From positions 37,751 through 101,750 of the forward strand of contig MGJF01000002.1 of assembly GCA_001794125.1 (NCBI GenBank): a stretch of DNA of 64,000 bases. Reading direction: 5' to 3'. The translations under genes were made by a program, and so were the position numbers. The first letter of the stretch is position 1. Each line of letters begins with the position of its first letter. Below are positions 20,429 to 36,799 of this stretch, one piece after another. Source of the DNA: Candidatus Yanofskybacteria bacterium RIFCSPHIGHO2_01_FULL_43_32. Its GTDB lineage: Bacteria > Patescibacteriota > Minisyncoccia > 2-02-FULL-40-12 > GWA2-44-9. The notes beneath the pieces are model-generated. The model searched no databases and had not been told where the DNA came from. It saw nothing but the letters and a program-made list of their open reading frames with translations.

Positions 20429-21517
20429 ATGGCTGAACAAACTTCAACAAATGCGAGTATTATAATCCCCACAATGAATAGGGTTGATTTTGTTATACGA
20501 CAACTTCGCTACTATGCATCAGTTGGATGCCAGCATATCATTTATATTGGCGACTCAAGCTCAAAAGAAGAATCGGAAAAAATACAAAACGAAATCAAGC
20601 GACTTGGAGATACTATTAATGTGAAATATTATTATCTACCACCCTATAATATTTGGCAGGCCCATTATTATTTGCTTACCCAGGTTAAGGAAAAGTATAC
20701 CTGTCTCAGTGGTGATGATGATTATCAGATTCCAGATTCAATAACTAAATGTGCGGAATTTTTGGAAACTAATCAGGAATACACAACAGCAAGTGGACAC
20801 GCGGTAAGTTTCAGGTTAAAACAGAATGGTGTGCATGGAGAGCTTTTAAGGCTAGCCGATTATAAAAGAAGGCAAATAGAAAACAATACCGGAGCGGAGA
20901 GGATTATAAATTTTTTTGACGATAATTATTTTGTGACATTTTTTTCGGTAAATAGAACAAATCAAACCAGGGAATACTGGAAAAGCTCAGAAAAAATATC
21001 AGATCAGGCGTTTGGATCTGAAATCTTGCCGAATTCTCTGTCTTTAATTCACGGTAAGTCAAAAATATTAGATTGCCTTGGGTTTGTGAGGCAAATCCAC
21101 GGTCAAAATAATGGGCTCTTAGGCACATTTGATTGGATTACGAGCTCGGAATGGTGTTCGTCTTATTCTTTGTTTGAAAAAGTAATTTCTGAAAACTTAG
21201 CCACAAAAGATAATATTTCCACTAAGGACGCTGTGGGTATTACGAAACAAGCATTTTTGGCCTACCTCCATAAACAGTTTAATAAAGTATACAACGAAGA
21301 CATTCCTGTTTCAAAAAGGAGTTACTTTTACGGAAGCGTTCTTAAGTCAATACGATCTAAAATTACAAAAATATTCCCATTTCTTAAATATATCTACAGG
21401 GTCGTGGTAAAGCCGAGACTAACCGGTAAAAAAGAACTTCATTATGAAGTGCTTAGAACCGAATCCGAATATTACAAAGACTTTAAGCCGGTTATGGATT
21501 CATTCACTGGCCATTGA
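20429..21517 (+). CDS. hypothetical protein, weak GT2-like N-terminal motif
   Basis: SIIIPTMNR resembles the GT2 N-terminal signature; the rest is unrecognised. Confidence 0.3.
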   Translation: MAEQTSTNASIIIPTMNRVDFVIRQLRYYASVGCQHIIYIGDSSSKEESEKIQNEIKRLGDTINVKYYYLPPYNIWQAHYYLLTQVKEKYTCLSGDDDYQIPDSITKCAEFLETNQEYTTASGHAVSFRLKQNGVHGELLRLADYKRRQIENNTGAERIINFFDDNYFVTFFSVNRTNQTREYWKSSEKISDQAFGSEILPNSLSLIHGKSKILDCLGFVRQIHGQNNGLLGTFDWITSSEWCSSYSLFEKVISENLATKDNISTKDAVGITKQAFLAYLHKQFNKVYNEDIPVSKRSYFYGSVLKSIRSKITKIFPFLKYIYRVVVKPRLTGKKELHYEVLRTESEYYKDFKPVMDSFTGH

Positions 21518-21594
21518 AGTTTTTGGTTATAACTCTGTTTGACACTTTTTGATACTTTTTGATACCATAAACTTAACTCGGAAAGAATTCGTTT

Positions 21595-24312
21595 ATGGTA
21601 AATAATCCTAAAATAATTGTCACTGTCGGACCGGCTACCCACAGTTTAAATCATCTTGAAAAAATGAAGGACTTGGGTGTGGATTTTATCCGCGTCAACA
21701 TGTCTCACTCAACAACAGACTACCTTAAAGATTTTATCAGGCTTTCTAAAAAGGCCGACTTGCCGTTTATAATCGATACTCAAGGTTCACAGGTCAGGAC
21801 TGGTGATTTATCAAGACCCTCAATACAGCTGAAAGAAAATCAATACATAAAAATTTACACTAAGACATCATTGGACTTAAAGGACAATGGCCTATGCCTT
21901 AAACCGTCGGGCATAACAGAAAAACTTGAACCGGGGGATTTGATATACATTGATTTTAATAGTTTGGTTTTAAGGGTTAGCGATGTTTCAACATCTTCAA
22001 GAGGATATATTACTGCTCAAGCCATCAGTGATGGATGCGCCGGCAACAACAAGGCTGTTGTCATCGAATCAGTTTTTAGGAATAAAATAAATTTGCCGGT
22101 TTTAAGTCCGGTTGATTTTGAGGCGATTAAAATTGGTCTGAGAGAAAAAATCGGATATATAGCCGTCTCGTTTGTTCGTCGTGTTGAGGACATTGATTTT
22201 GTCAGAAAAGCCACAAAAAATTCAATGAAAATAATTTCAAAGATTGAATGTGTTGACGCCTTGAAAAACCTGGATGCTATAGTTAAGAAAACTGACCTTA
22301 TCCTTATTGACCGCGGAGACTTAAGCAAGGAAATACCCCTTACAGCCATACCAATGGCTCAAAAAATGATAATGAACACAGCCAAGAAATATAAAAAAGA
22401 CGTATTTGTAGCAACAAATCTTCTGGAGACAATGATTAGCAGTAAAAAGCCAACCCGGGCAGAAGTAAATGATATAGCGAATACTATTTTAGATGGAGCT
22501 GCAGGACTTGCGTTGGCAGCGGAGACTGCAATCGGCAAATATCCTTTGGAATCCATAGCTACACTTAAAAAGGTAATAAGCCACACAATATCTCCTGCGG
22601 TAAATTTGCATGACGGTAACTCATTGATTACCAGACCTCATGGCGGGAAATTGGTTAATTTAATACCCGATTCTATGCCAAGTTCAAAATACCTTGCATC
22701 ACTGAAGAAAGTTAAACTTGATCCAGAACATCAGATGGACGTTGAACTTATGGGTGTCGGTGTTTATAGTCCGCTTGAAGGATTTATGATCAAAAAGGAT
22801 TTGGATAGTGTTGCCGACAAAATGCGCCTTGCTAACGGCACTATCTGGCCGCTGCCTATTGTTCTTGATGTAAGCAAAGAAGAGTCCTGTAAGTTTAAAA
22901 TCGGGGATGCCATTGCCCTTATGGACAGTGAAAATTCGGTTATGGCGATATTGCACTTAGCCCAAAAATACCCTTTTAATAAAAAGAGGATTATAAAAAA
23001 AATATTTGGTACTGACAGTATAAAACACCCTGGCGTTAAGATGATGAATAACATGAAAGACATTTTTATTGGAGGCAAGATAGAGTTTATCAAAAAAAGA
23101 AATTCCGAGACAAAAGGGTATGAATTAACTCCCGCTCAGGTAAGAAAGCTCATTGAAGAAAAGGGGTGGCTAAAGGTAATAGGGTTTCACACCCGGAATG
23201 TTATTCACCGCAGCCACGAGTTTATACAACTCGAAGCATTAAGAAAGGAATTTGGTGACGGGCTTTTTGTTCATCCGATTATAGGCAAGAAAAAACCGGG
23301 GGACTTTAATGCAAAATATATTATTAGGTCATACGAAACAATGATGAAAAATTTTTATCCAAAGGATTCCGTTATCTTTTCGGTTTTCTCAAGCTATTCC
23401 CGTTATGCCGGTCCAAGAGAGGCTTTGTTTACGGCTATTTGCCGGAAGAACTACGGGTGCAGTCATTTTATTGTCGGCCGGGATCATACCGGGGTTGGTG
23501 ATTTTTATAAACCGACTGCGTCTCATGATATTTTTGATAAGTTTCCGGATCTTGGAATAAAACCAGTTAAATTCCACCAAGTCTTTTACTCCAAGAAATT
23601 AGACCAGCATATGCATGAAAAAAATGTTTCCCGTCATGATGAAAAAGATAAACTTCATATCAGTGGAACCCAAGCCCGCAAAATGTTTTTGAACGGAAAA
23701 ATACCGCCGAGTTGGTTTATGAGGCCGGAAATTTCAAAACCAATTCTGACTGCCATCAAAAGAGGTGAAAAAGTTTTTGTGAAAAACGCTGTGGTTGTTT
23801 GGTTTACTGGACTAAGCGGTTCTGGAAAAACAACAATTGCTACCGCACTCTCAGGGAAACTTTCTAAGATGGGTAAAAAGGTCCTTATGTTGGATGGTGA
23901 CGAAATAAGAAAGACCATCAGCAAAGATTTGGGTTTTTCAAGAGACGATATCAGGGAAAACAATAAACGCATTGCTGAGTTGGCAAAATCAAAGATGGGA
24001 GACTACGACTTTATTCTAGTTCCCGTTATTTCACCCCTTAAAGAAGATCGGCTAACTGCCAGAAAATTAATAGGGGACAATTTTGTGGAGCTTTTTGTTA
24101 ATGCTTCTTTGGAAAAATGCAAAGAACGGGACGTTAAGGGTCTTTATGGAAAATATGCTGCCGGTTTGGTCGTTAATCTTATAGGAGCCAGTTCATCTAG
24201 TTCATATGAATGCCCTGAAAATCCTGACATAGAGATAAATACTGAAGATTCAATTGTTAACAAAAACATCAATCAGGTAATCAAAACTTTGAATAAGAAA
24301 AAAATAATATGA
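21595..24312 (+). CDS. tri-domain fusion: pyruvate-kinase-like domain + sulfate adenylyltransferase (ATP sulfurylase) + adenylylsulfate (APS) kinase
   Basis: aa 1-330 PK-like (IVTVGPATHS...RVNMSHS...IIDTQGSQVRTG; SKIECVDALKNLDAIVKKTDLILIDRGDLSKEIP; KKPTRAEVNDIANTILDGAAGLALAAETAIGKYPLESI); middle GFHTRNVIHRSHEFIQ (ATP-sulfurylase QTRNxxHRAH); C-terminal VVWFTGLSGSGKTT P-loop (CysC-like). Confidence 0.8.
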   Translation: MVNNPKIIVTVGPATHSLNHLEKMKDLGVDFIRVNMSHSTTDYLKDFIRLSKKADLPFIIDTQGSQVRTGDLSRPSIQLKENQYIKIYTKTSLDLKDNGLCLKPSGITEKLEPGDLIYIDFNSLVLRVSDVSTSSRGYITAQAISDGCAGNNKAVVIESVFRNKINLPVLSPVDFEAIKIGLREKIGYIAVSFVRRVEDIDFVRKATKNSMKIISKIECVDALKNLDAIVKKTDLILIDRGDLSKEIPLTAIPMAQKMIMNTAKKYKKDVFVATNLLETMISSKKPTRAEVNDIANTILDGAAGLALAAETAIGKYPLESIATLKKVISHTISPAVNLHDGNSLITRPHGGKLVNLIPDSMPSSKYLASLKKVKLDPEHQMDVELMGVGVYSPLEGFMIKKDLDSVADKMRLANGTIWPLPIVLDVSKEESCKFKIGDAIALMDSENSVMAILHLAQKYPFNKKRIIKKIFGTDSIKHPGVKMMNNMKDIFIGGKIEFIKKRNSETKGYELTPAQVRKLIEEKGWLKVIGFHTRNVIHRSHEFIQLEALRKEFGDGLFVHPIIGKKKPGDFNAKYIIRSYETMMKNFYPKDSVIFSVFSSYSRYAGPREALFTAICRKNYGCSHFIVGRDHTGVGDFYKPTASHDIFDKFPDLGIKPVKFHQVFYSKKLDQHMHEKNVSRHDEKDKLHISGTQARKMFLNGKIPPSWFMRPEISKPILTAIKRGEKVFVKNAVVVWFTGLSGSGKTTIATALSGKLSKMGKKVLMLDGDEIRKTISKDLGFSRDDIRENNKRIAELAKSKMGDYDFILVPVISPLKEDRLTARKLIGDNFVELFVNASLEKCKERDVKGLYGKYAAGLVVNLIGASSSSSYECPENPDIEINTEDSIVNKNINQVIKTLNKKKII

Positions 24313-25247
24313 AAATAAGGCTTGGCAAAAGACAACCCTTGACGAAAAAACTCCTTTTAGTTGAGGGCATAGCAAGAGCTGGTAAATTTTTATTGGCTAA
24401 TGTTTTGAGCGGGTTTGAGCACATTGAGCCGGTTCAACTGTATGGTTTATTAGAACAAATACCCGTGTGGGCTAATTTGGGATTAATTGATAGAAATACC
24501 GCAAAAGAGATTTTGAGGTTAGAAATTGATACACATTGTTATGAAATGCTTACTGGACGAAATTTTAACTACAGAGTGTCGGACAAATCATCAATTTTTA
24601 ATATTCCACGTTATCAAAAATACCTTGCCCGCTCTAAAGAGAAAGACATAGACAAGATAATGAAAGAATATGATCAGGAAAAACCGTTCAGTTTTTTCAT
24701 TATGCACGAACTGATGCCGTACATCGGAATATATTTTGAAACCTTTCCAGAGTTGAAGGTTATAAGCATCAGGAGAAATCCTGTTGACTTGGTTTTTTCA
24801 TGGTACAAACGCGGTATCGGTCAAAGATATGGCAAGGATCCTAAATTTTTCAAAATTCCTATTCAGGGCAAATATGGCTCCGCTCCCTGGTTTTTACCCG
24901 AATGGAATAAGCTTTCGGAAATAGATAGGATAATACTTTCCATCAAAAAACTCTTCGACATGTATGAGGTGTCGTACCGGTGCTTGCCTCACAAGTATAA
25001 AAAAAGAATTATGTTTGTTTCATGTGAAGATGTTTTGAGTAATCCTGTGAGCGTTATTGATAGATTGGGAAATTTTTTGGGCAAAAAAGCTCTTCCAGAA
25101 ATGAAGTCTATTTTAAAAAGAGAAAAACTGCCTGTAATTAAAAAGCTTGAATTAAGGAGCCAAAATCTAGAGGAAATTAAAAAATTGGCTTCAAAAAAGT
25201 ATTTAAATGTTTTAATTAAACTAAAAAGGGAATATGAAAAATCTTAA
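24309..25247 (+). CDS. putative PAPS-dependent carbohydrate sulfotransferase
   Basis: GIARAGKF 5'-PSB-like loop and ISIRRNPVDLVFSWY resembling the 3'-PB RxxRxPxDxxxS motif; ATGA overlap with the PAPS-synthase fusion. Confidence 0.5.
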   Translation: MKIRLGKRQPLTKKLLLVEGIARAGKFLLANVLSGFEHIEPVQLYGLLEQIPVWANLGLIDRNTAKEILRLEIDTHCYEMLTGRNFNYRVSDKSSIFNIPRYQKYLARSKEKDIDKIMKEYDQEKPFSFFIMHELMPYIGIYFETFPELKVISIRRNPVDLVFSWYKRGIGQRYGKDPKFFKIPIQGKYGSAPWFLPEWNKLSEIDRIILSIKKLFDMYEVSYRCLPHKYKKRIMFVSCEDVLSNPVSVIDRLGNFLGKKALPEMKSILKREKLPVIKKLELRSQNLEEIKKLASKKYLNVLIKLKREYEKS

Positions 25248-25971
25248 GCCAAAAATATTAGCATATATTCCTGCTCGAGGCGGATCAAAAAGAATACCGG
25301 GCAAAAATATAAAGAAGTTTGCCGGTAAGCCTCTCATTGCTTACACTATTGAGCAGGCTTTAGCATGCAAGCTTGCGGACAAAATCGTAGTTGATACTGA
25401 CTCCAAAGAAATAGCAAAAATTGCAAAAGAGCATGGGGCAGAAGTTTCCTTTTTGCGTCCAGCTAAACTGGCTCAAGACAAATCAATGATTATAGATAGT
25501 ATAATCTATACTCTTGACCGACTTGAAAAAGAACAGAATTACAAACCCACTCATCTGTTAATCCTTCAAACCACTTCCCCTTTGCGTGAACTAAAGGACA
25601 TAATGGATTGTTGGAAATTAATGCAGTCAACGAATGCAACCACAGTATTAACTGTCTGCCCAACTCATCCTTGTTTTTACCACATGAAAGAGAATAAAGA
25701 CATTACCATTGTTAATGGAAACGAGGGTATATCTACAAATATGCAGGCTTGGCCGGAAGGATATATTTTGAATGGCTGTTTTGTCTATATTGTTGATATT
25801 CCCACACTAAGAAAAGAACGTCGTGTTATCACTGCCAAGACCAAGGCGGTCGTCTGTCCCAAATGGCGATCCGCTGACCTTGATACGCCGGAAGAATGGG
25901 TAATGGCTGAAGTTTTGTATAAGAATAAAAAGAAAATAGAAAAACAAATAAAAAAACATGAATCGAAATAA
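25234..25971 (+). CDS. CMP-nonulosonic acid synthetase (acylneuraminate cytidylyltransferase NeuA/LegF family)
   Basis: ILAYIPARGGSKRIPGKNIKKFAGKPLIAYTIEQA signature of CMP-NeuAc/Leg synthetases. Confidence 0.75.
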   Translation: MKNLKPKILAYIPARGGSKRIPGKNIKKFAGKPLIAYTIEQALACKLADKIVVDTDSKEIAKIAKEHGAEVSFLRPAKLAQDKSMIIDSIIYTLDRLEKEQNYKPTHLLILQTTSPLRELKDIMDCWKLMQSTNATTVLTVCPTHPCFYHMKENKDITIVNGNEGISTNMQAWPEGYILNGCFVYIVDIPTLRKERRVITAKTKAVVCPKWRSADLDTPEEWVMAEVLYKNKKKIEKQIKKHESK

Positions 25972-26980
25972 ATTAAAACTCTTAGTCATCGGATTAGGTT
26001 CAATGGGAAAACGGAGGATTAGAAACCTTATTGCCAATGGTGTTAAAAAAGATAATATTTTTGGTTTTAATATTTCAAAAGAACGCTGTAAAACAATTGG
26101 TGAGGAATATGGTATTAAAACAAGCGATGATTTTAAATTGGCTGTAAAAAGTTTTAGCCCAGATGTCTTCATGATTTCTACACCACCGGATACTCATGAT
26201 AAGTATTTTCTTTATGCCATTAAACACAAAAAGCATTTTTTTGTGGAACATCCGACAACAGATAAGGGTTATAATAAACTGCTGACTAAAACTCCAAAAG
26301 GTATTGTGGGTGTCCCGTCTAATAGCTGGAGGTTTAATCCGTCTGTCAAGAAAATTAAAGAATTGTTGGAAAAAGGAACTATCGGAAAAATTCTTGCTTT
26401 TCAGTATCACATGGGCCAGTATCTCCCTGATTGGCATCCATGGGAGGACTTCAGGAATGTCTATTTTTCCAAGAAAGAAACCGGCGCTTGCAGGGAAATG
26501 TTTGCCTTTGAATTGGGTTGGCTTACTTTTGCGCTTAATTTAAGCGAGGTAAAAAACATTTTGGGTATAACAAAAAAATTATCTGATTTGGACATGAGCG
26601 CAGATGATTTCTATTCGGCGGTTTTAAATTTTAAAAACAAAGTAAGTGCTACAATGGTAATTGATTTATTGTCTAGAAAACCTTTCCGAACATTGAAAAT
26701 TATCGGTTCGAAGGGTGTGCTTGAGTGGGAGTGGCTTGATTACACAATAAAAATTCATAAATCAAGAAATGATTCCCAGTTGATACGGCTCAACAAAGGC
26801 AGAAACGAGAAACTTTATGTCACCACGGAAGATATGTATGAGGAAGAAATAGAGTTGTTTTTAGAGGCTGTTGAGGGTAAAAGACTTTTTCCGTTCACCT
26901 TCAAAGAAAATCATCATTTTTTAAAAGTTTTATTTGCCTTAGAAAAAAGCAGTAAAACGGGACAGGTTGTTTCACCATGA
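25958..26980 (+). CDS. Gfo/Idh/MocA-family NAD(P) oxidoreductase
   Basis: LKLLVIGLGSMGKRRIRNL Rossmann N-terminus. Confidence 0.65.
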   Translation: MNRNKLKLLVIGLGSMGKRRIRNLIANGVKKDNIFGFNISKERCKTIGEEYGIKTSDDFKLAVKSFSPDVFMISTPPDTHDKYFLYAIKHKKHFFVEHPTTDKGYNKLLTKTPKGIVGVPSNSWRFNPSVKKIKELLEKGTIGKILAFQYHMGQYLPDWHPWEDFRNVYFSKKETGACREMFAFELGWLTFALNLSEVKNILGITKKLSDLDMSADDFYSAVLNFKNKVSATMVIDLLSRKPFRTLKIIGSKGVLEWEWLDYTIKIHKSRNDSQLIRLNKGRNEKLYVTTEDMYEEEIELFLEAVEGKRLFPFTFKENHHFLKVLFALEKSSKTGQVVSP

Positions 26981-28032
26981 TTAAAATCGGCTCTAAAACT
27001 ATTTCCGAAAAATCACCAGTTTTTATTGTTGCTGAAGCCGGAGTAAATCATAACGGTAATTTAAAATTGGCTAAAAAACTAATTGATGTTGCCGTCCTGG
27101 CCGGTGTTGATGCTGTAAAATTTCAGACTTTTAATCCCGACACATTGGTTGCTAAAAATGTTTCCAAAGCCGACTATCAGGCAAAAAATGAAAAAAGGTT
27201 AAAGAAAGAAGAAAGTCAGTACGAAATGCTGAAGCGGTTAATGTTGCCCAGAGAATGGCATAAGGAATTAAAAAAATATGCCGAAAGCAAGGGTTTGATA
27301 TTTTTATCTACTCCGTTCTCTTTGGATGATGCCGTTTTCTTGCGTAAGCTCGGAGTGAAAGCGATTAAAGTAGGTTCAACTGATACTGAAAACTTGCCCT
27401 ATCTTGCCAAGATTGCAAAATGGAATCTGCCGATTATTTTGTCTACCGGAATGTCGGCATTGCCGGAGATAAAAGAAGCAGTTAGAACTATTCAAAAGGC
27501 GGGCAATGATAAACTAATCGTTCTGCATTGCACAACCAATTATCCGACACCCTTTGAAGAAGTTAACCTGAGAGCCATAGCCACTCTTCAAAGAGAACTA
27601 AAAAACATACCTATAGGTTTTTCCGAACACACAGTCGGAATAGAAGCAACTGTAGCTTCAGTAGCTCTCGGCGCAAGAGTTATAGAAAAACACTTCACTC
27701 TAGATAAAAATTTTCCCGGACCTGATCATTCGGCTTCTCTTGAGCCTGATGAATTAAAACAATTGGTTTCTTCAGTTAGGCGCATTGAAACCGCTATGGG
27801 CACGGGCAATAAAGTGTTGTTTGTCAGCGAGAAAAAAATTGCTGAGGTTGCGCGAAAGAGCTTGGTTGTCGCCCGTGACATACCCTCCGGAAAACAGTTA
27901 ACCGCTGAGGACGTCTCCGTAAAAAGACCGGGTACAGGAATAAAGCCGAAATTTTTGAATAAAATTATCGGAAAAACAGCGAAAGTAAACTTGCAAAAAG
28001 ATCAGTTGTTAAGTTGGGATTTAATTAAATGA
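26977..28032 (+). CDS. nonulosonic acid synthase (NeuB/LegI/PseI family, PEP-condensing)
   Basis: PVFIVAEAGVNHNGNLKLAKKLIDVAVLAGVDAVKFQTF; C-terminal SAF-like domain. Confidence 0.85.
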   Translation: MIKIGSKTISEKSPVFIVAEAGVNHNGNLKLAKKLIDVAVLAGVDAVKFQTFNPDTLVAKNVSKADYQAKNEKRLKKEESQYEMLKRLMLPREWHKELKKYAESKGLIFLSTPFSLDDAVFLRKLGVKAIKVGSTDTENLPYLAKIAKWNLPIILSTGMSALPEIKEAVRTIQKAGNDKLIVLHCTTNYPTPFEEVNLRAIATLQRELKNIPIGFSEHTVGIEATVASVALGARVIEKHFTLDKNFPGPDHSASLEPDELKQLVSSVRRIETAMGTGNKVLFVSEKKIAEVARKSLVVARDIPSGKQLTAEDVSVKRPGTGIKPKFLNKIIGKTAKVNLQKDQLLSWDLIK

Positions 28033-29177
28033 TTAATAAAAAAATAGCTTACATATCGGGTACGAGAGCAGATTTCGGGTTAATGACTCCTGTTTTGGCT
28101 GCAATTAAAAAAAGCAAGAAACTTGATTTAAAACTATATGTAACCGGTATACATCTGATGCCGGAATTCGGTAATACGATCAAAGAGATTAAAAAACAAT
28201 TTCCGGAGATAATTGAAGTTAAGGCCGTATTTGAAAGTGATGAAAAACAAGCCATGGCTGAGTTTGCGAGTATTTTGATAAGTAAGTTGGTCAGTCTTTT
28301 TGAAAAAGACAGGCCGGATTTTGTGCTAACACTAGGTGATCGGCCAGAGATGATTTCTGTTGCTTTGGTCTGTTTGTATCTCGGAATTCCTACGGGTCAA
28401 ATCCATGGGGGCGATAAAAGCGCTACTGTGGATGAAATTGCCAGACATGCAATTACAAAGCTTTCTCATTTGCATTTTCCTGCAACAAGAGAGGCGGCGG
28501 AACGAATCAAAAAAATGGGCGAGGAAAGTTGGCGGATAAAAGTTGTGGGCGCGCCAGCTTTAGACGTAATTATGAATGAACAATTGCCGACCAGAGAGCA
28601 ACTTTTTAAAAACCTTGGTCTTGACCTAAAAAAGAAAGTAATTTTAGTTACCCAGCATCCGGTAAGTGAAGAATACGAAAAATCCGGAAGCCAAATGGCA
28701 GAGATTATATCCGCGATAAAAACTTTTGAATTGCCCGTAGTGATTATCTATCCGCATGCTGATGCCGGAGGGAGAAGAATAATATCCGAGATCAATAAGG
28801 AAAACAAAAATCCAAATTTTCATATTTTCCCGAGCTTGCCTCATAAAGATTTTTTAGCTCTTGAGAGGGAAGCGGCCGTCTGGGTCGGGAATTCTAGTGC
28901 TGCCATGATAGAATCAGCTTCTTTCGGGGTTCCCATAGTTAATATTGGTGGTCGCCAATCAGATCGACAAAGAGGACTTAATGTTTTAAATGTCGGTTAT
29001 GATAGGAATAAAATTAAGAGGGCTATGAAAAAATCTTTGTTTGATACTGCCTATCTTAAAACTCTAAAAAAAATAAAAAATCCATGGGGTGATGGAAAAA
29101 CCGGACAACGGGTGATGAAAACGCTTGAAAATATTAAAATTGATTCAAAATTATTAAATAAGCAGATAACTTATTAG
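28029..29177 (+). CDS. hydrolysing UDP-N-acetylglucosamine 2-epimerase (NeuC/LegG family)
   Basis: IAYISGTRADFGLMTPVL, GDRPEMISVALVCLYLGIPTGQIHGGD. Confidence 0.8.
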   Translation: MINKKIAYISGTRADFGLMTPVLAAIKKSKKLDLKLYVTGIHLMPEFGNTIKEIKKQFPEIIEVKAVFESDEKQAMAEFASILISKLVSLFEKDRPDFVLTLGDRPEMISVALVCLYLGIPTGQIHGGDKSATVDEIARHAITKLSHLHFPATREAAERIKKMGEESWRIKVVGAPALDVIMNEQLPTREQLFKNLGLDLKKKVILVTQHPVSEEYEKSGSQMAEIISAIKTFELPVVIIYPHADAGGRRIISEINKENKNPNFHIFPSLPHKDFLALEREAAVWVGNSSAAMIESASFGVPIVNIGGRQSDRQRGLNVLNVGYDRNKIKRAMKKSLFDTAYLKTLKKIKNPWGDGKTGQRVMKTLENIKIDSKLLNKQITY

Positions 29178-29278
29178 AAAAGAAAGGTGTTTTTGCGCAA
29201 TAAATAAATAATTAGTCAATGATGACATCTATTAAAAAACATGTTAAAAATAAGCAGCTTTTTAATAAGGGCCCTGAC

Positions 29279-30088
29279 ATGTCTGAGCGCGAAATAAAAA
29301 ACGTGATATTTATGGGTAAAAAGCCCTTGGCGGTAAGTGCTTTTGAGTATTTGCTTCAAAGGGGGATTAACGTAAAACTTGTTGTTGCAATGGTGGATGA
29401 ACCATTTGAAAACAATCTGGCCAATGCCGCTTTGTCTCATGGCATACCGTTATATACCGATCCGAAAGAGATTTATGAACTTATTGATTCAGGTGATGAA
29501 ATGTTCAGAGATGTTGATTTAGTTATTTCTTATCTTTTTTGGAAAAGAATGAAAAATGGCCTGATCAAATTGCCTAAGTGGGGATGCGTTAATTTTCATC
29601 CAGCACCACTTCCGGATTATAAGGGAAGAGCGGGATATAATACTGCAATTCTTGATAAACGTGATGATTTCGGGGTAAGTGCTCATTTTATAGATTCGGA
29701 GGAGTTTGACGTTGGGCCAATAATTAAAGTTACTAAATTTAAAATTGAACACGACAAAGAAACAGCTTATTCACTGGAGGCAAAAAGCCAGCAAAAAATG
29801 TTGGAACTGTTTAAAGAGGTAATTAATCTATTTACAAGTAACGAGGAGATTCAAATCTCTCCAAATTCCGGGGGGCTACACTTAACCGGTGAACAACTTG
29901 AAGAAATGAAAAAAGTTGATCTAGCCAAAGATTCTGCAGAAGAAATAGACCGGAAGGTAAGAGCTTTTTTCTTTCCTCCTTATACCGGGGCTAAACTAAT
30001 TGTAGGAGAAAAAGAATTTACTTTAGTTAATCAGGGGATATTAAATTTATTTCATGAAAAAATTAATAAAAAATTACCCAATAGCTAG
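29279..30088 (+). CDS. formyltransferase-fold sugar N-acyl(formyl)transferase
   Basis: VIFMGKKPLAVSAFEYL and WGCVNFHPAPLPDYKGRAGYNTAIL (Fmt catalytic core). Start chosen at ATG 29279 with AAGGG RBS rather than the ORF-track 29219. Confidence 0.6.
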   Translation: MSEREIKNVIFMGKKPLAVSAFEYLLQRGINVKLVVAMVDEPFENNLANAALSHGIPLYTDPKEIYELIDSGDEMFRDVDLVISYLFWKRMKNGLIKLPKWGCVNFHPAPLPDYKGRAGYNTAILDKRDDFGVSAHFIDSEEFDVGPIIKVTKFKIEHDKETAYSLEAKSQQKMLELFKEVINLFTSNEEIQISPNSGGLHLTGEQLEEMKKVDLAKDSAEEIDRKVRAFFFPPYTGAKLIVGEKEFTLVNQGILNLFHEKINKKLPNS

Positions 30089-31190
30089 GCCTCATATCAC
30101 TCATACGGAAAGACGGCATGTTTTGGAGGTTTTAAGTTCCGGGTCTTTAAGTTTGGGACCAAAATATGCAATATTTGAAAAAGAATTTGCTAAAAAAATA
30201 GGAACTAAATTTGCATGTACGGTTTCCAGTGGTACGGCCGGTTTACATTTGGCTATGATAGCTGCGAACATACAACCAGGAGATGAAGTTATTACATCTC
30301 CTTTTTCTTTTGTGGCTTCAGCAAATTGTATTTTATACATGAACGCTACGCCGGTTTTTGTGGATATAGATTCTCTGACATACAACATGAACCCCGATAA
30401 AATAGAAGCGGCGATTACTTCTAAAACGAAGGCTATTTTAGTAGTTCATATTTTTGGCCAAACATCAGACATGACCCGAATCATGCAAATTGCCAAAAAA
30501 CATAATCTTAAGATTATAGAGGATGCCTGCGAATCTGTATGCGCAACCCATAAAGGGAAAAAGGCCGGAACTTTCGGTGAAACTGCCGTGTTTGCTTTTT
30601 ATCCAAACAAACAGATGACGACCGGTGAAGGCGGAATGATAACCACGAATAATGAAAAAATATATAAATTATGCGGGAGTTTAAGAAATCAAGGACGAGC
30701 AGAAAACATGCAGTGGCTAGACCATGAAAGATTGGGATACAACTATAGAATGGATGAAGTGAGCGCAGCTCTCGGTATCAGTCAGTTGGCAAGGCTGGAT
30801 AAAATGATAGAACAACGCAGGATTATCGCAGGATGGTATAATGAATATCTGAAACCGTACAAAGAATTGGTGCAAATACCCCAAGTATCACCAGAGAACA
30901 CTCATACATGGTTTGTTTATGTCGTTACTCTAAGCCATGCCAAAATTAACCGGGATAAATTAATTACAATGTTGTCTCGGTTGGGTGTCAGCACTAAACC
31001 TTATCTGCCGTCTATTCATCTTTTCAGTTTTTATAAAAACAGATTCGGCTATAAAAAAGGTGATTTCCCGATATCAGAAAAGATAAGTCATTCCGCTTTG
31101 GCTTTGCCGTTTTATATCGGTCTGAAAAAGGGGGACATTAAGTACATAGTCAAAACATTAATTGACACCATTAAAAGCTATGAAAAATGA
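30054..31190 (+). CDS. DegT/DnrJ/EryC1/StrS PLP-dependent sugar aminotransferase (PseC/LegC-like)
   Basis: TVSSGTAGLHLAM, AFYPNKQMTTGEGGMITT with the conserved Lys present. Confidence 0.85.
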   Translation: MKKLIKNYPIARPHITHTERRHVLEVLSSGSLSLGPKYAIFEKEFAKKIGTKFACTVSSGTAGLHLAMIAANIQPGDEVITSPFSFVASANCILYMNATPVFVDIDSLTYNMNPDKIEAAITSKTKAILVVHIFGQTSDMTRIMQIAKKHNLKIIEDACESVCATHKGKKAGTFGETAVFAFYPNKQMTTGEGGMITTNNEKIYKLCGSLRNQGRAENMQWLDHERLGYNYRMDEVSAALGISQLARLDKMIEQRRIIAGWYNEYLKPYKELVQIPQVSPENTHTWFVYVVTLSHAKINRDKLITMLSRLGVSTKPYLPSIHLFSFYKNRFGYKKGDFPISEKISHSALALPFYIGLKKGDIKYIVKTLIDTIKSYEK

Positions 31191-32184
31191 ATTTAAAAAT
31201 AAAATAATTTTAGTTACTGGCGGTACCGGATCTATTGGCTCAGAAATAGTCAAACAACTTTTGGAATATAAGCCCAGGCAGATTAGGGTATTATCAAGAA
31301 ATGACAGCAAGCAATATCACTTGTTAGAAAAACTTGGCCATCCTAAAAACGTCAGAACACTCATTGGGGATATTAGGGACTCCAACCGTCTTGATTTGGC
31401 TTTTGAAAATGTGGATGTAGTTTTTCACACTGCCGCTTTAAAACATGTTTCCTTGTGCGAATACAATCCTCTCGAGACTATTAAAACTAATGTTTTAGGT
31501 TCTCAAAATGTTATAGATGCTGCTTTTAAAAACGGTGCTGAAAAGGTTATAGCTATTTCAACCGATAAGGCCGCAAACCCCGGCAATGTGATGGGCTTAT
31601 CAAAATTAATGATGGAAAAACTCATGACGAATACTGGTTATTTTTCCGGAGGAAAAACAAAGCTTTCGTGTGTAAGGTTCGGTAATGTGGCATGGTCAGA
31701 AGCCTCAGTCTTGCCATTGTGGAAAAGTCAGGCTGAAAATAAAGGACAAATAAATCTTACTGATAGGGATGCAACCAGATTTTTTATGTCAACAGACCAG
31801 GCGGTTAAATTAGTCTTAAAAGCGGCTGAAATTATGCAAGGAGGCGAGGTTTTTATTTTAAAGATGCCTTCAATTAAAATGGCTGATCTTGCCCGTGTTT
31901 TTGTTAATAAACATTTTTCAAATAAAAAAATTAAAATTAAATCCACCAACAAAAGAATCGGTGACAGAACACACGAGGAATTGTTTGACTTTAACGATGA
32001 TCAGAAATTGGTGCTTGAAGATAAGCAGATGTTTGTCATATTGCCCAGAGAATCAAGAGAAAGAAATAAAATATATTCAGTGCAACCCAAAATGTCTGCA
32101 TATAAGGGATTTAAAACAATTACCAAGACAACCTATGCTTCCCAAGATTATTTAAACAAAGATGCGATAGGAAAATTGGTTTAA
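31162..32184 (+). CDS. nucleotide-GlcNAc 4,6-dehydratase (PseB/LegB/FlaA1/CapD family)
   Basis: IILVTGGTGSIGSEIVKQLLEYKPRQIRVLSRNDSKQ short-form CapD N-terminus. Confidence 0.8.
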   Translation: MTPLKAMKNEFKNKIILVTGGTGSIGSEIVKQLLEYKPRQIRVLSRNDSKQYHLLEKLGHPKNVRTLIGDIRDSNRLDLAFENVDVVFHTAALKHVSLCEYNPLETIKTNVLGSQNVIDAAFKNGAEKVIAISTDKAANPGNVMGLSKLMMEKLMTNTGYFSGGKTKLSCVRFGNVAWSEASVLPLWKSQAENKGQINLTDRDATRFFMSTDQAVKLVLKAAEIMQGGEVFILKMPSIKMADLARVFVNKHFSNKKIKIKSTNKRIGDRTHEELFDFNDDQKLVLEDKQMFVILPRESRERNKIYSVQPKMSAYKGFKTITKTTYASQDYLNKDAIGKLV

Positions 32185-34089: not shown

Positions 34090-34938
34090 ATGATTATTAT
34101 AAGATTATCGTTGGGTATGGGCAATAATTTATTTCAATATGCGTTGGGCCGTCGTTTGGCACTGGAACGCGAGACGGAATTATATTTGGATTTTTCGGGT
34201 GAAAATGAGAATCGCCGTCGCTATGCTTTGGGTTATATTTCTAAATTCAACATGATCAAAGCTGTAGCGATCAAAAGAGAAGTTGGAAAAATAAAATTAT
34301 TAAACAAATTATTTTTCTTAAACCCCAACTACAGAAACGCTGTCATTAAAGAGAGTGGAAATACTTTTGATCAAACTGTTATTAATGCTCCTAAGGACGC
34401 CTATCTTATGGGTTACTGGCAGAGTGAAAGATATTTTAAACCCGCGGAGAGTATTATAAGACAAGACCTTACACTTAAAGAACCGCAAGGGGAAAAATAT
34501 CAAGATCTTTTGGATAGAATTACACTATCTAATTCCGTGTCAGTTCATATCCGGCGCGGTGATTATTTGTTGGAAAAAAATTTACGCTTATTTCACCCAT
34601 GCACATCTGATTATTATCTTAAAGCCGAAGCGTTAATATCAGAAAAAGTATCTTCGCCTGAGTTGTTTATTTTTTCTGACGATATTGAATGGGTAAAACA
34701 AAATATCCCGTTTCGTTTTCCGGCCACTTTTGTTTCTGATGGCAGCCTAGCTGACTATCAGGAGCTTATGTTGATGAGCGCATGCAAACACAATATTATT
34801 GCCAACAGCACTTTTAGCTGGTGGGGCGCCTGGCTTAACAATAATCCTCAAAAAATAGTAATTACCCCTAAAAAATGGTTTATTGACCCGGCCACGGACG
34901 AAAAGGATTTAATACCTCCGACATGGGTTAAGATATAA
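34090..34938 (+). CDS. GT11-family alpha-1,2-fucosyltransferase-like (fucosyl- or colitosyl-transferase)
   Basis: GMGNNLFQYALGRRLA (GxGNQxFQYA) and VSVHIRRGDY (HxRRGDY) GT11 motifs. Confidence 0.8.
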   Translation: MIIIRLSLGMGNNLFQYALGRRLALERETELYLDFSGENENRRRYALGYISKFNMIKAVAIKREVGKIKLLNKLFFLNPNYRNAVIKESGNTFDQTVINAPKDAYLMGYWQSERYFKPAESIIRQDLTLKEPQGEKYQDLLDRITLSNSVSVHIRRGDYLLEKNLRLFHPCTSDYYLKAEALISEKVSSPELFIFSDDIEWVKQNIPFRFPATFVSDGSLADYQELMLMSACKHNIIANSTFSWWGAWLNNNPQKIVITPKKWFIDPATDEKDLIPPTWVKI

Positions 34939-34964
34939 AATGAGCAGATTATAATATAAAAGCC

Positions 34965-35822
34965 ATGAACTATTCTCCCAAAAAAATAATCTCCAGAATA
35001 AAAAAGCGGTATCAAGAATACCAAAATTTTTGGCACTTAAGTGATGTTTTACAAAAAAACAACATCCTTCTTGATTCAAAAAAAGGTAAAACTTGCTTCA
35101 TTTTAGGTAATGGACCATCAATAAATAACCAGGACTTAACCTGCTTGGTCAATAAAGAAACCTTTGTAATGAATAATTTTTGGCGACATCCTCAGTATAA
35201 AATCATTCGTCCCAAGTATTTGTTGGCTGGTGATTTGGCAAGTTATGCTCAAAATAAAAGACCGGAAGTAAGGGGCGTGGATTTATCGGCCAGTAGTGTT
35301 GCCACATCACAGGTTCCCGAAACGAAGTTGTTTTTAAATAGCATAGCCAAAAAATATGTTGAAGAAAATAAATTGTTTTTACAAAATCAGATTTTTTATG
35401 TTCTGCAACAGGGTCACATGGATGAAAAGTTGCGTTTTAATATTGATCCAAGTAGGCCCATACCACTTCCTAAAAATTCTGCCATATTAGCTTTGATTAT
35501 TGCCGTACATATGGGTTTTGAAATCATTTATCTTCTTGGGTGTGAGCATGATTTTTTGGCTTATCCTGCCAAAAGGTCATATGCTGGTTTTGTGGGTTTT
35601 TATGATAAACCTAAAAAATCTTCTTCGGATATACCCGAAGTTCCTTTGTATCAAGAAGCTCGTTATGAAAATATGATAGAAAGCTGTTTGAAACTTTTCA
35701 GAAACTACAGACTATTGTCGGAAAAAATCGCTAAGCTGTATCCTAATGTCAAAATTTATAATGCAACCCCAAACAGCTTTTTGGACGTATTCCCAACTGT
35801 TAATTTTGAAGATATTAAATAA
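34965..35822 (+). CDS. GNGPS-motif glycosyltransferase, GT42 sialyltransferase (CstII)-like / Maf (DUF115)-like
   Basis: FILGNGPSINNQDL...FVMNNF...AILALIIAVHMGFEIIYLLGCEHDF parallels CstII AGNGPSL...FRCNQF...AVAIALGYKEIYLSGIDFY. Confidence 0.45.
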   Translation: MNYSPKKIISRIKKRYQEYQNFWHLSDVLQKNNILLDSKKGKTCFILGNGPSINNQDLTCLVNKETFVMNNFWRHPQYKIIRPKYLLAGDLASYAQNKRPEVRGVDLSASSVATSQVPETKLFLNSIAKKYVEENKLFLQNQIFYVLQQGHMDEKLRFNIDPSRPIPLPKNSAILALIIAVHMGFEIIYLLGCEHDFLAYPAKRSYAGFVGFYDKPKKSSSDIPEVPLYQEARYENMIESCLKLFRNYRLLSEKIAKLYPNVKIYNATPNSFLDVFPTVNFEDIK

Positions 35823-36796: not shown

Positions 36797-36799
36797 AAA

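What the first reader, a model, noticed from the sequence alone, without database searches (positions are those of the whole stretch)
21595..25247. Unusual pyruvate-kinase-like / ATP-sulfurylase / APS-kinase tri-domain fusion next to a putative sulfotransferase: a dedicated PAPS factory for glycan sulfation
The 905-aa ORF begins with a complete pyruvate-kinase catalytic domain. The PEP/ADP-binding motifs are recognisable: IVTVGPATHS...MSHS...IIDTQGSQVRTG, KKPTRAEVNDIANTILDG and GKYPLESI. The regulatory C-domain is absent. It continues into ATP sulfurylase (HTRNVIHRSHEF) and APS kinase (GLSGSGKTT). Sat-CysC fusions are known, but an N-terminal PK-like domain is not a described architecture as far as I know. 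It could regenerate ATP from PEP in situ or pull the thermodynamically unfavourable sulfurylase reaction. The overlapping downstream ORF has PAPS-binding-like motifs, implying a sulfated polysaccharide, which is rare in bacteria.
Basis: partly seen in the sequence, partly recalled or inferred. Interest (0 to 1): 0.8.

Follow-up and report, generated by a model that had tools for sequence, protein, structure and literature searches.

The report
Pyruvate-kinase-fused PAPS synthase with sulfotransferase
One gene in a candidate-phyla-radiation bacterium joins a pyruvate kinase to the two enzymes that make the activated sulfate donor PAPS; this probably lets phosphoenolpyruvate drive sulfation of a surface sugar chain, and the same undescribed fusion occurs in hundreds of other microbial species.

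Summary
ORF 21595-24312 (905 aa) contains a full pyruvate-kinase (PK) A/B barrel without the regulatory C-domain. After a short linker come the PUA-like and ATP-sulfurylase domains, then APS kinase. The next ORF overlaps by 4 nt and is a PAPS-type sulfotransferase.

It is not a frameshift artefact. All 83 related loci examined encode PK and sulfurylase in one ORF. These come from CPR bacteria, DPANN archaea, Chloroflexota, Acidobacteriota, Omnitrophota and two cultured Bacteroidota. About 115 protein clusters (50% identity) span the junction.

All PK catalytic, metal-binding and nucleotide-binding residues are invariant in 112 sequences. Permuted fusions also exist (PK-APSK, Sat-PK, Sat-APSK-PK-Sat). 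About half of the loci carry sulfotransferases, 18 carry a CysQ-like phosphatase, and 63 carry an APS kinase.

Best reading: a PEP-driven PAPS synthase. The PK domain turns ADP back into ATP, removing an inhibitor of both partner enzymes, and the PAPS feeds glycan sulfation here.

Databases label these proteins "hypothetical protein", "pyruvate kinase" or "sulfate adenylyltransferase". Nine full-text literature searches found no description of the fusion.

Verdict: a new variant of a known kind. It is real, widespread and biochemically untested.

The parts
21539..21568 (+). Promoter-like site (TTGACA, 18 nt, TACCAT, with TG) in the 77-nt gap upstream of the fusion gene; weak evidence
   Evidence: 10 of 12 consensus matches. 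The region as a whole is not enriched in such sites (23 found against 16.1 +/- 3.8 expected). The sequence is shown.
21595..24312 (+). Fusion gene, 905 aa: PK barrel, linker, PUA_2, ATP sulfurylase, APS kinase
   Evidence: Identical to GenBank OGN01594.1 and related entries, 'hypothetical protein', Candidatus Yanofskybacteria. AlphaFold2 model has mean pLDDT 89.4 and pTM 0.71.
21604..22557 (+). Pyruvate kinase A/B (barrel plus lid) domain, aa 4-321; no C-domain
   Evidence: Pfam PF00224, E 3.8e-69, full model length. Best solved homologues are PKs at E ~2e-46. R33, N35, S37, H38, D61, R68, K153, K216, E218, D242, T274 and E310 are invariant in 112 sequences.
22558..22632 (+). Interdomain linker, aa 322-346
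   Evidence: Lowest confidence in the model: pLDDT below 50 at aa 340-342, and a block mean of 60 for aa 331-340. No Pfam domain.
22633..23094 (+). PUA_2 domain, the N-terminal domain of ATP sulfurylase, aa 347-500
   Evidence: Pfam PF14306, E 3e-47.
23119..23748 (+). ATP sulfurylase catalytic domain, aa 509-718; motif FHTRNVIHRSHE has H where canonical enzymes have Q
   Evidence: Pfam PF01747, E 5e-78. TIGR00339 scores 373 against a cutoff of 323. Aligns to 2gks, 8a8d and 1i2d, all of which have FQTRN. FHTRN is present in 82 of 82 family members.
23788..24237 (+). APS kinase domain, aa 732-881; P-loop GLSGSGKTT and LDGD motif
   Evidence: Pfam PF01583, E 2e-46. TIGR00455 scores 167 against a cutoff of 139. 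Alignment to 2gks.
24309..25247 (+). PAPS-type sulfotransferase, overlapping the fusion gene by 4 nt (ATGA), which suggests translational coupling
   Evidence: Sulfotransfer_1, E 3.9e-10. Orthologues occur in 13 of 83 loci, mostly directly downstream of the fusion. G20, R23, G25, K26 (5'-PSB-like loop) are invariant and R156, P158, S164 (3'-PB region) nearly invariant in 14 orthologues. A profile search of the PDB hits only sulfotransferases, best E 5e-4.
25234..32184 (+). Nonulosonic-acid (sialic-acid-like sugar) biosynthesis genes: cytidylyltransferase, oxidoreductase, NeuB, UDP-GlcNAc 2-epimerase, formyltransferase, DegT aminotransferase, Polysacc_synt_2 dehydratase
   Evidence: Pfam hits.
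34090..39936 (+). Glycan assembly genes: GT11, MptE-like protein, GT2, Wzx-type flippase (36800-38134), an unassigned 380-aa ORF, GT2
   Evidence: Pfam hits.
40574..41911 (-). Priming bacterial sugar transferase (Bac_transf)
   Evidence: Pfam PF02397, E 3.5e-63.
20429..21517 (+). GT2-like glycosyltransferase directly upstream (weak hit)
   Evidence: Pfam PF00535, E 6.9e-5, exactly at the cutoff.

Best explanation
The 905-aa protein is a trifunctional, PEP-driven PAPS synthase.

Proposed steps:
1. The sulfurylase domain makes APS and PPi from ATP and sulfate.
2. The APS-kinase domain makes PAPS and ADP.
3. The N-terminal PK barrel, which has no allosteric C-domain, converts ADP and PEP into ATP and pyruvate.

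The net reaction becomes ATP + PEP + sulfate -> PAPS + PPi + pyruvate. This keeps local ADP low. [quoted passage not shown] Lowering ADP also adds the large free-energy drop of PEP hydrolysis to an otherwise very unfavourable activation.

The translationally coupled downstream sulfotransferase would then use the PAPS to sulfate a sugar of the Wzx-dependent, nonulosonic-acid-containing surface glycan encoded by the surrounding operon.

Shown: domain identity, intact active-site residues, conservation of the fusion, and the genomic association with sulfotransferases, APS kinase, CysQ-like phosphatases and glycan genes.

Inferred: PK activity, coupling or channelling between the domains, and the identity of the sulfated acceptor.
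For: Domains and motifs:
- establish the four domains.
- All PK residues that bind PEP, Mg2+, K+ and the nucleotide phosphates are invariant in 112 homologues. The mapping to human PKM2 comes from the alignment: R73, N75, S77, D113, R120, K207, K270, E272, D296, T328, E364.

Conservation of the fusion:
- PK and sulfurylase lie in one ORF in 83 of 83 loci, including 80 GTDB species representatives.
- An exhaustive HMMER search with the junction segment finds 115 clusters at 50% identity with E <= 1e-30.
- Independent domain orders exist: PK-APSK, Sat-PK, Sat-APSK-PK-Sat and Phosphodiest-PK-Sat. This argues for functional coupling rather than an accident of one fusion event.

Neighbourhood:
- An APS kinase is fused or lies within 6 kb in 63 of 83 loci.
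- Sulfotransferases occur in about 40 of 83 loci and are the commonest family among the two downstream genes.
- A CysQ-like PAP phosphatase occurs in 18 of 83 loci, and in some cases is fused to the enzyme.
- In the cultured strains Flavobacterium sp. Leaf82 and [Flexibacter] sp. ATCC 35103 the orthologue lies between NRPS genes. The latter strain is the described monobactam producer (PMC9248904).

Literature:
- In-vitro PAPS synthesis fails without PK/PEP regeneration because of ADP (PMC9885120).
- ADP binds sulfurylase in the same way as APS, and APS kinase forms a dead-end E-ADP-APS complex (PMC3734648).
- Eukaryotic ATPS-pyrophosphatase fusions are a precedent for fusing an equilibrium-pulling helper enzyme to sulfurylase (PMC2275785).

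PEP supply: a cofactor-independent phosphoglycerate mutase gene in the window (52006-53598, minus strand) shows that lower glycolysis genes are present.
Against: - No enzymology exists for any family member.
- The conserved fusion partner of PK is the sulfurylase, which consumes ATP but releases no ADP. It is not the ADP-producing APS kinase.
- 20 of 83 loci have no APS kinase within 6 kb.
- The PK domain departs from canonical PKs at positions tied to K+ dependence: DT(E/Q)GSQ(I/V)R instead of DTKGPEIR. It also lacks the C-domain that builds the normal tetramer.
- The sulfurylase has His where all solved homologues have the sulfate-contacting Gln.
- The interdomain geometry in the model is not informative, because the linker has low confidence.
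- The window contains no CysQ homologue (tblastn). Among the 49 ORFs scanned, no sulfate transporter was found.
Confidence: 0.65

Rival explanations
1. The PK barrel is not a catalyst here. It acts as a scaffold or oligomerisation domain, or as a sensor of PEP or nucleotides that gates PAPS synthesis. This would resemble the APS-kinase-like allosteric domain of fungal ATP sulfurylase, or the inactive sulfurylase-like domain of Thiobacillus APS kinase.
For: - Degenerate domains reused as scaffolds are known in this pathway. The PDB entries 1i2d and 3cr8 appear among the hits.
- Four Chloroflexota loci carry a degenerate Sat-like-APSK gene next to PK-Sat.
- The PK domain has lost its C-domain and has non-canonical residues at positions 114 and 117 in rabbit-muscle numbering.
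Against: Every catalytic, metal-binding and nucleotide-phosphate ligand is invariant over 112 sequences at 46-82% identity, including K153 in the lid domain. This is not expected for a pure scaffold. PKs with Gln or other residues at position 117 belong to the active, K+-independent branch (PMC4374775).
Confidence: 0.12
2. The PK domain is an active, general pyruvate kinase, possibly the cell's housekeeping glycolytic enzyme or a broad NDP kinase. Its fusion to sulfurylase would be incidental or merely co-regulatory, with no kinetic coupling to PAPS synthesis.
For: CPR genomes are small and often have single copies of glycolytic genes. No second PK is present in the 64-kb window. UniRef names the protein simply 'Pyruvate kinase'.
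Against: - The fusion also occurs in large genomes that are unlikely to depend on it for glycolysis. Examples are a 10.4-Mb Ardenticatenaceae contig, a 5.8-Mb Acidobacteriota contig, and Flavobacterium.
- It always sits in specialised-metabolite or glycan loci.
- The same barrel has been fused repeatedly, in different orders, to sulfate-activation enzymes.
Confidence: 0.1
3. The module feeds assimilatory sulfate reduction (cysteine synthesis) rather than sulfation.
For: Sat and CysC are classical assimilation enzymes. NCBIfam's best whole-protein hit is the bifunctional Sat/CysC model.
Against: - No PAPS or APS reductase or sulfite reductase was found among the 49 window ORFs scanned.
- The gene is translationally coupled to a sulfotransferase inside a glycan operon.
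- Across the family the commonest neighbours are sulfotransferases, flippases, glycosyltransferases and CysQ-like phosphatases.
Confidence: 0.05
4. The PK-like barrel uses PEP to phosphorylate something other than ADP, or the short PK-Sat forms deliver APS rather than PAPS to their sulfotransferases.
For: 20 of 83 loci have no APS kinase nearby, yet several have a sulfotransferase adjacent to PK-Sat. One of these is L008, whose protein is 82% identical to the window protein. The family also has its own active-site-proximal signature.
Against: - The nucleotide-phosphate ligands R73, R120 and K207 (human PKM2 numbering) are invariant.
- 63 of 83 loci do encode an APS kinase.
- The sulfotransferase orthologues keep the 3'-phosphate-binding region.
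- The missing APS kinase may simply be encoded elsewhere in those genomes.
Confidence: 0.06
5. Assembly or frameshift artefact joining separate pyk and sat genes.
For: None beyond the a priori possibility in a metagenome-assembled genome.
Against: The identical protein is seen on 19 contigs. The same fusion is present in 83 of 83 loci from independent assemblies and in two cultured isolates.
Confidence: 0.01

Closest known systems
Bifunctional ATP sulfurylase-APS kinase of Aquifex aeolicus (PDB 2gks)
   Same: Same domain order (PUA-like, sulfurylase, APS kinase). It is the best solved homologue of aa 370-903, with E 1e-102 and 34% identity. The P-loop and the DGD, GPREA and GRDH motifs are shared.
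   Different: It has no PK domain. It has the canonical FQTRN motif where this family has FHTRN. The window protein scores below the NCBIfam equivalog cutoff for this family (455 against 669).
Canonical pyruvate kinase (for example E. coli PykF, human PKM)
   Same: A/B barrel over the full Pfam model, E about 2e-46 to solved PKs, and all catalytic residues conserved.
   Different: No C-terminal regulatory or tetramerisation domain. Signature DT(E/Q)GSQ(I/V)R in place of DTKGPEIR, with Gln at rabbit position 117. Fused to sulfate-activation enzymes.
ATP sulfurylase-inorganic pyrophosphatase fusions of stramenopiles and haptophytes (PMC2275785)
   Same: Same logic: a helper enzyme that removes a product or inhibitor and pulls the unfavourable sulfurylase equilibrium is fused to the sulfurylase.
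   Different: The helper there is a pyrophosphatase acting on PPi, in eukaryotes. Here it is a PK acting on ADP with PEP, in bacteria and archaea. That paper does not mention pyruvate kinase.
CysDN GTPase-coupled sulfate adenylyltransferase (E. coli type); comparison from general knowledge, not tested here
   Same: It also solves the energetic problem of APS formation by coupling it to the breakdown of a second high-energy phosphate compound.
   Different: The sulfurylase fold is unrelated, and the coupling is conformational and driven by GTP hydrolysis rather than by mass action through ATP regeneration.
Synthetic PAPS-generation cascades with PK/PEP ATP regeneration (PMC9885120)
   Same: The same set of activities is combined on purpose: sulfurylase, APS kinase and pyruvate kinase with PEP. 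In that study PAPS was practically absent without the PK system.
   Different: That is an in-vitro mixture of separate enzymes. Here the activities are encoded in one natural polypeptide.
Metazoan PAPS synthase (PAPSS1/2)
   Same: A single-chain PAPS synthase. Its APS-kinase domain is homologous at E about 1e-33.
   Different: The domain order is the opposite (APS kinase N-terminal), and there is no PK domain.

Membership tests
Pyruvate kinase (EC 2.7.1.40) | A-domain TIM barrel with inserted B (lid) domain | tested here: met
   PF00224 matches model positions 3-328 of 328, E 3.8e-69. The model shows barrel strands and a beta-rich insert at aa 76-158.
Pyruvate kinase (EC 2.7.1.40) | Catalytic, Mg2+ and nucleotide ligands (human PKM2 R73, R120, K207, K270, E272, D296, T328, E364) | tested here: met
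   The equivalent residues are R33, R68, K153, K216, E218, D242, T274 and E310 by the alignment. All are invariant in 112 sequences.
Pyruvate kinase (EC 2.7.1.40) | K+-site signature T113/K114/E117/T120 (rabbit numbering) of K+-dependent PKs, or L113/Q114/K117 of K+-independent PKs | tested here: not met
   The family has T/E(Q)/Q/T, as in DTEGSQIRTG, and Q66 is invariant. Gln at position 117 is reported only in some crenarchaeal PKs of the K+-independent branch.
Pyruvate kinase (EC 2.7.1.40) | C-terminal alpha/beta regulatory domain (PF02887) | tested here: not met
   No PK_C hit. TIGR01064 scores 281.8, below the 306.4 cutoff, and matches only model positions 3-334 of 476.
Pyruvate kinase (EC 2.7.1.40) | PEP + ADP -> pyruvate + ATP activity | not testable with these tools
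   Requires an enzyme assay.
ATP sulfurylase (Sat, homo-oligomeric type) | PUA_2 plus ATP-sulfurylase domains scoring above curated cutoffs | tested here: met
   PF14306 and PF01747. TIGR00339 scores 373.2 against 322.95, and NF003166 scores 432.4 against 387. The model matches 8a8d with target TM-score 0.93.
ATP sulfurylase (Sat, homo-oligomeric type) | Active-site motifs QxRNxxHxxH and GPREA...GRDH(A/T)G | tested here: inconclusive
   RN, both His residues, GPREA and GRDHTG are present, but the first residue is His, not Gln (FHTRNVIHRSHE). This holds in 82 of 82 family members, whereas the three best solved homologues have Q.
APS kinase (CysC) | P-loop kinase domain above cutoffs, with GxxGxGK(S/T)T and LDGD motifs | tested here: met
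   PF01583, E 2e-46. TIGR00455 scores 167.3 against 138.7. GLSGSGKTT and LDGDEIR align to 2gks.
Bifunctional Sat/CysC (NF004040 equivalog) | Whole-protein score above the equivalog cutoff | tested here: not met
   454.9 bits against a cutoff of 669. The protein is a distinct subfamily with an added PK domain.
PAPS-dependent sulfotransferase (downstream ORF) | Sulfotransferase domain above cutoff, with 5'-phosphosulfate-binding and 3'-phosphate-binding motifs | tested here: met
   PF00685 scores 40 bits against a cutoff of 22. The G-x-x-R-x-G-K loop (aa 20-26) is invariant and the R-x-P-x-D-x-x-x-S region (aa 156-164) largely conserved in 14 orthologues. The 3'-PB region aligns to SULT2B1, and all 38 PDB hits but one are sulfotransferase-fold proteins. 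The acceptor is unknown.
Wzx/Wzy-type surface glycan gene cluster (context) | Priming transferase, flippase, glycosyltransferases and sugar-nucleotide genes in one locus | tested here: met
   Bac_transf, Polysacc_synt (Wzx), GT2, GT11, NeuB, Epimerase_2, DegT and others. The polymerase is not identified: ORF 38127-39269 has no family.

The most novel reading that the evidence does not exclude
The C-domain-less 'DTEGxQ' PK barrel is a portable ADP-scavenging and ATP-regenerating module. Evolution has attached it repeatedly, in several domain orders, to sulfate-activating enzymes. The result is a PEP-powered PAPS synthase that makes sulfation affordable for energy-poor, fermentative cells.

Its abundance in CPR bacteria and DPANN archaea, inside glycan operons and with apparent transfer between the two domains of life, would mean that sulfated surface glycans are a common and so far unnoticed trait of these ultra-small episymbionts.
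Probability: 0.45. Interest if true: 0.75.

Novelty: new variant of a known kind. Interest (0 to 1): 0.6.

Why it matters
Sulfate activation is energetically one of the worst steps in metabolism. Known solutions are GTP-coupled CysDN, pyrophosphatase (free or fused), and rapid APS consumption.

A natural fusion of pyruvate kinase to the sulfurylase would be a fourth solution, driving the step with PEP. It is the same solution that biochemists adopted for in-vitro PAPS synthesis.

It is directly testable, because two cultured Bacteroidota carry full-length orthologues. It could give a single-chain biocatalyst for PAPS regeneration. It would correct the database labels on hundreds of proteins now called "pyruvate kinase", "sulfate adenylyltransferase" or "hypothetical protein".

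It also predicts sulfated glycans on CPR and DPANN cell surfaces, which bears on how these episymbionts attach to their hosts.

Tried and rejected
- **Frameshift or assembly artefact:** rejected. The fusion is present in 83 of 83 loci, and the identical protein is seen on 19 contigs.
- **Degenerate PK domain:** rejected. The catalytic residues are invariant.
- **Assimilatory role:** considered unlikely. No reductase genes were found among the 49 ORFs scanned.
- **Iterative HMM search for sulfotransferases:** it drifted into APS kinase and the fusion itself, which share the P-loop fold. I redid it with the fusion cluster excluded and confirmed the other candidates with Pfam.
- **AFDB (afdb50) fold search:** intended to find annotated full-length matches, but the library was unavailable. 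The PDB Foldseek search shows that no solved chain covers both PK and Sat.
- **The 301-aa ORF between the NRPS gene and the fusion in Flavobacterium sp. Leaf82:** it has a PRSGG-like motif, but could not be assigned to sulfotransferases by hhalign or by Pfam at E <= 1.
- **Literature:** nine full-text searches found no description of a natural PK-sulfurylase fusion. In the sulfurylase papers checked, PK appears as the coupled-assay or ATP-regeneration reagent.
- **Not possible with these tools:** checking whether the Yanofskybacteria genome has a second, canonical PK, or an APS kinase or CysQ elsewhere.

Full report
**1. What is in the sequence**

The window has an ATG-initiated ORF at 21595..24312 (+, 905 aa). 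A second ORF lies at 24309..25247 (+, 312 aa). The second start codon overlaps the first stop codon as ATGA.

Pfam places four domains on the 905-aa protein:
- PK barrel, aa 4-321, E 3.8e-69, covering model positions 3-328 of 328.
- PUA_2, aa 347-500.
- ATP-sulfurylase, aa 509-718, E 5e-78.
- APS_kinase, aa 732-881, E 2e-46.

There is no hit to the PK C-terminal domain. NCBIfam agrees. The sulfate adenylyltransferase and adenylyl-sulfate kinase models pass their cutoffs. The PK equivalog falls just short (281.8 against 306.4) because only positions 3-334 of 476 are matched.

An AlphaFold2 model built on 112 homologues is confident (mean pLDDT 89.4, pTM 0.71). Confidence is low only in the linker around aa 333-347. 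No solved structure covers both the PK and sulfurylase parts. The best match is the Aquifex Sat-APSK structure 2gks, with a query-normalised TM-score of about 0.4.

The downstream ORF is a sulfotransferase (Sulfotransfer_1, E 3.9e-10). Its PAPS-binding loops are conserved in 14 orthologues.

**2. Origin and artefact test**

The protein is identical to GenBank entries from Candidatus Yanofskybacteria (Parcubacteria, CPR) MAGs. These are annotated "hypothetical protein". UniRef calls a one-residue variant "Pyruvate kinase".

Evidence that the fusion is real:
- The word-indexed protein search returned 120 clusters (at 90% identity) that all carry PK + PUA_2 + ATP-sulfurylase. Roughly 70 also carry APS kinase.
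- A scan of GTDB species representatives, using family-specific peptide patterns, gave 361 confirmed relatives. In all 80 loci retained, and in 3 further loci, PK and sulfurylase lie in one ORF.
- An exhaustive HMMER search with only the junction segment (aa 230-450) found 115 clusters at 50% identity with E <= 1e-30.

The frameshift or assembly explanation is refuted.

**3. Is the PK domain a real enzyme?**

I mapped residues to human PKM2 through the alignment:

| Human PKM2 | Window protein |
|---|---|
| R73 | R33 |
| N75 | N35 |
| S77 | S37 |
| H78 | H38 |
| D113 | D61 |
| R120 | R68 |
| K207 | K153 |
| K270 | K216 |
| E272 | E218 |
| D296 | D242 |
| T328 | T274 |
| E364 | E310 |

All twelve are invariant in the 112-sequence alignment. 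This level of conservation, at 46-82% pairwise identity to the query, indicates selection for catalysis.

The family has its own signature. It reads DT(E/Q)GSQ(I/V)R where canonical PKs read DTKGPEIR, and Gln at rabbit position 117 is invariant. The literature links Glu117 to K+ dependence and Lys117 to K+ independence. Some crenarchaeal PKs of the K+-independent branch carry other residues there, including Gln (PMC4374775). My inference is that the domain is active and possibly K+-independent.

The sulfurylase half keeps the RN..H..H, GPREA and GRDHTG motifs. It has His where all solved homologues have Gln (FHTRN in 82 of 82 members). The consequence of this change is unknown.

**4. Context in the window**

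The gene sits in a long same-strand run of genes (about 20.4-39.9 kb). GC content there is 36-39%, lower than in the right-hand part of the window (up to 51%). The genes in this run are:
- A GT2-like glycosyltransferase.
- The fusion gene and the sulfotransferase.
- A full nonulosonic-acid pathway: cytidylyltransferase, oxidoreductase, NeuB, UDP-GlcNAc 2-epimerase, formyltransferase, DegT aminotransferase and a PseB-like dehydratase.
- GT11, an MptE-like protein and GT2 transferases.
- A Wzx flippase.

A priming sugar transferase lies on the opposite strand just beyond this run. Upstream are further sugar-nucleotide enzymes, split ThDP enzymes and B12-radical-SAM genes.

None of the 49 ORFs scanned is a PAPS or APS reductase or a sulfite reductase. 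The PAPS is therefore for sulfation, not assimilation. A phosphoglycerate mutase gene (52006-53598, minus strand) shows that lower glycolysis genes, and hence a route to PEP, are present.

**5. Context across the family**

Architecture of the family, counted over all fetched loci including four duplicates:
- 37 proteins are PK-Sat-APSK.
- 50 proteins are PK-Sat.

Neighbours, across the 83 non-redundant loci:
- An APS kinase is fused or lies within 6 kb in 63 loci.
- It is sometimes itself fused to a CysQ-like phosphatase.
- In four Chloroflexota loci it is fused to a degenerate sulfurylase-like domain.
- CysQ-like phosphatases occur in 18 loci. In one case all four activities appear to be in one chain.
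- Sulfotransferases are the commonest family among the two genes downstream.
- Orthologues of the window sulfotransferase occur in 13 loci. Other Sulfotransfer_1/_3 proteins occur in about 28 more.
- The remaining neighbours are flippases, glycosyltransferases and sugar-nucleotide enzymes.

In the cultured strains Flavobacterium sp. Leaf82 and [Flexibacter] sp. ATCC 35103, the full-length orthologue (47% identity) lies between NRPS genes. The latter strain is the described producer of the monobactam SQ 28,332 (PMC9248904). Monobactams are N-sulfonated; this is general knowledge. That the gene belongs to the deposited cluster KY502195 is my inference from the extra accession AQX14468.1.

**6. 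Independent fusions**

Among the junction-search hits are permuted architectures:
- PK-APSK (P0246).
- Sat-PK (P0206).
- Sat-APSK-PK-Sat (P0012).
- Phosphodiesterase-PK-Sat (P0189).
- PK-CBS (P0241).
- A double PK-adenylate kinase protein (P0236).

Repeated fusion in different orders is classic "Rosetta stone" evidence that the PK barrel works together with sulfate-activation enzymes.

A rough NJ tree has no support values. In it the long and short forms interleave, DPANN sequences fall in several places among CPR ones, and the Chloroflexota, Acidobacteriota, Actinobacteria and NC10 short forms make one clade. This suggests repeated gain or loss of the APS-kinase fusion and lateral transfer.

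**7. Mechanism**

Sulfurylase has a very unfavourable equilibrium (PMC2275785). ADP binds its active site in the same way as the product APS. [quoted passage not shown] In vitro, PAPS is barely made unless PK and PEP remove the ADP (PMC9885120).

The simplest model is that the fused PK barrel does this in vivo. It converts ADP and PEP to ATP beside the enzymes that need ATP and are poisoned by ADP. The net reaction is ATP + PEP + sulfate -> PAPS + PPi + pyruvate.

Losing the allosteric C-domain would free the barrel from glycolytic regulation. The coupled sulfotransferase then sulfates a component of the glycan.

Points that weaken the model:
- The invariant fusion partner is the sulfurylase, not the ADP-producing kinase.
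- 20 loci have no nearby APS kinase.
- There is no biochemistry for any family member.

I put the model at about 0.65. The rivals are a non-catalytic scaffold or sensor, a housekeeping PK, assimilation, and an alternative acceptor or APS-level chemistry. They are listed with their evidence in the Rival explanations section.

**8. Comparison with known systems and novelty**

The C-terminal two-thirds is an ordinary member of the Aquifex-type Sat-APSK group in fold and order. It is nonetheless a distinct subfamily, scoring below the NF004040 cutoff and carrying the His variant. The N-terminal third works like a PK but fails two PK family features: the C-domain and the K+-site signature.

The closest conceptual relatives are:
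- The eukaryotic sulfurylase-pyrophosphatase fusions.
- GTP-coupled CysDN.
- Man-made PK/PEP PAPS cascades.

Nine full-text searches found no description of a natural PK-sulfurylase fusion. Databases label the proteins inconsistently. I therefore rate it a new variant of a known kind. It is real and widespread (hundreds of species), present in databases but functionally unrecognised.

Interest is 0.6. It gives a tidy, testable biochemical idea, with a biocatalysis angle and a prediction about CPR and DPANN surfaces. It is not a new kind of system.

Noticed in passing
window 2926-4703, 6509-8387, 9363-11364 (+): There are three consecutive pairs of split ThDP-dependent enzymes: Transketolase_N or E1_dh followed by Transket_pyr/Transketolase_C. 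They lie among sugar-nucleotide genes and may perform two-carbon branching or chain extension of a sugar.
   Followed up: no
window 16801-18954 (+) and 18994-20292 (-): Two B12-binding radical-SAM proteins (717 and 432 aa) lie just upstream of the glycan operon. Similar B12-radical-SAM genes flank the fusion in the Woesearchaeota locus L003.
   Followed up: no
window 20001-40000 compared with 48001-64000: The glycan cluster has 36-39% GC. The right-hand part of the window (SecA, phosphoglycerate mutase and neighbours) reaches 47-51% GC. This compositional contrast is typical of variable or transferred glycan islands.
   Followed up: no
window 21545-21564: A tandem direct repeat CTTTTTGATA x2 lies inside the promoter-like site upstream of the fusion gene.
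   Followed up: partly
window 29219-30088 (+): A formyltransferase sits within the nonulosonic-acid gene set, which suggests an N-formylated nonulosonate.
   Followed up: no
window 23230-23232 (aa 546 of the fusion): The window protein has Glu at aa 546 where the cluster representative P0001 has Gly (IQLEALRKEF against IQLGALRKEF). This is strain-level variation between Yanofskybacteria MAGs.
   Followed up: partly
P0246, P0206, P0012, P0189, P0241, P0236 (proteins): The same kind of C-domain-less PK barrel is found in other fusions: PK-APSK, Sat-PK, Sat-APSK-PK-Sat, Phosphodiesterase-PK-Sat and PK-CBS. There is also a double PK-adenylate kinase protein.
   Followed up: partly
L044:4494-6248, L051:10075-11766, L058:8258-10018, L063:2828-4519: In these Chloroflexota loci a second gene lies next to PK-Sat. 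It encodes a sulfurylase-like domain that has lost the QTRNxxHxxH motif, fused to an intact APS kinase. This resembles the Thiobacillus denitrificans 3cr8 type and hints at hetero-oligomers formed through the Sat folds.
   Followed up: partly
L059 and L060 (1-5130, 5995-8769, 9587-13474): In [Flexibacter] sp. ATCC 35103 and Flavobacterium sp. Leaf82 the fusion lies between large NRPS genes, and the two loci are about 94% identical. PMC9248904 states that the monobactam cluster was found only in the Flexibacter strain. The Leaf82 locus may be a second copy.
   Followed up: partly
L006:2599-5448, L068:678-3533 and 5 other loci: A protein of about 950 aa combines a cytidylyltransferase-like domain with PPDK_N and PEP-utilizers domains. 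It recurs near the fusion in 7 loci and is a second PEP-using enzyme in these glycan clusters.
   Followed up: no
L003:2497-3984, 4698-6245, 6605-8008; P0189: Alkaline-phosphatase-superfamily genes (Sulfatase or Phosphodiest) lie directly upstream of the fusion in Woesearchaeota. In P0189 such a domain is fused to the N-terminus of PK-Sat. Its role is unknown; PPi or nucleotide hydrolysis, or transfer of a phospho-substituent, are possibilities.
   Followed up: no
L008, L038, L067, L083 and 16 other loci: These loci have PK-Sat, often beside a sulfotransferase, with no APS kinase within 6 kb. L008 encodes the closest relative outside Yanofskybacteria, at 82% identity.
   Followed up: partly
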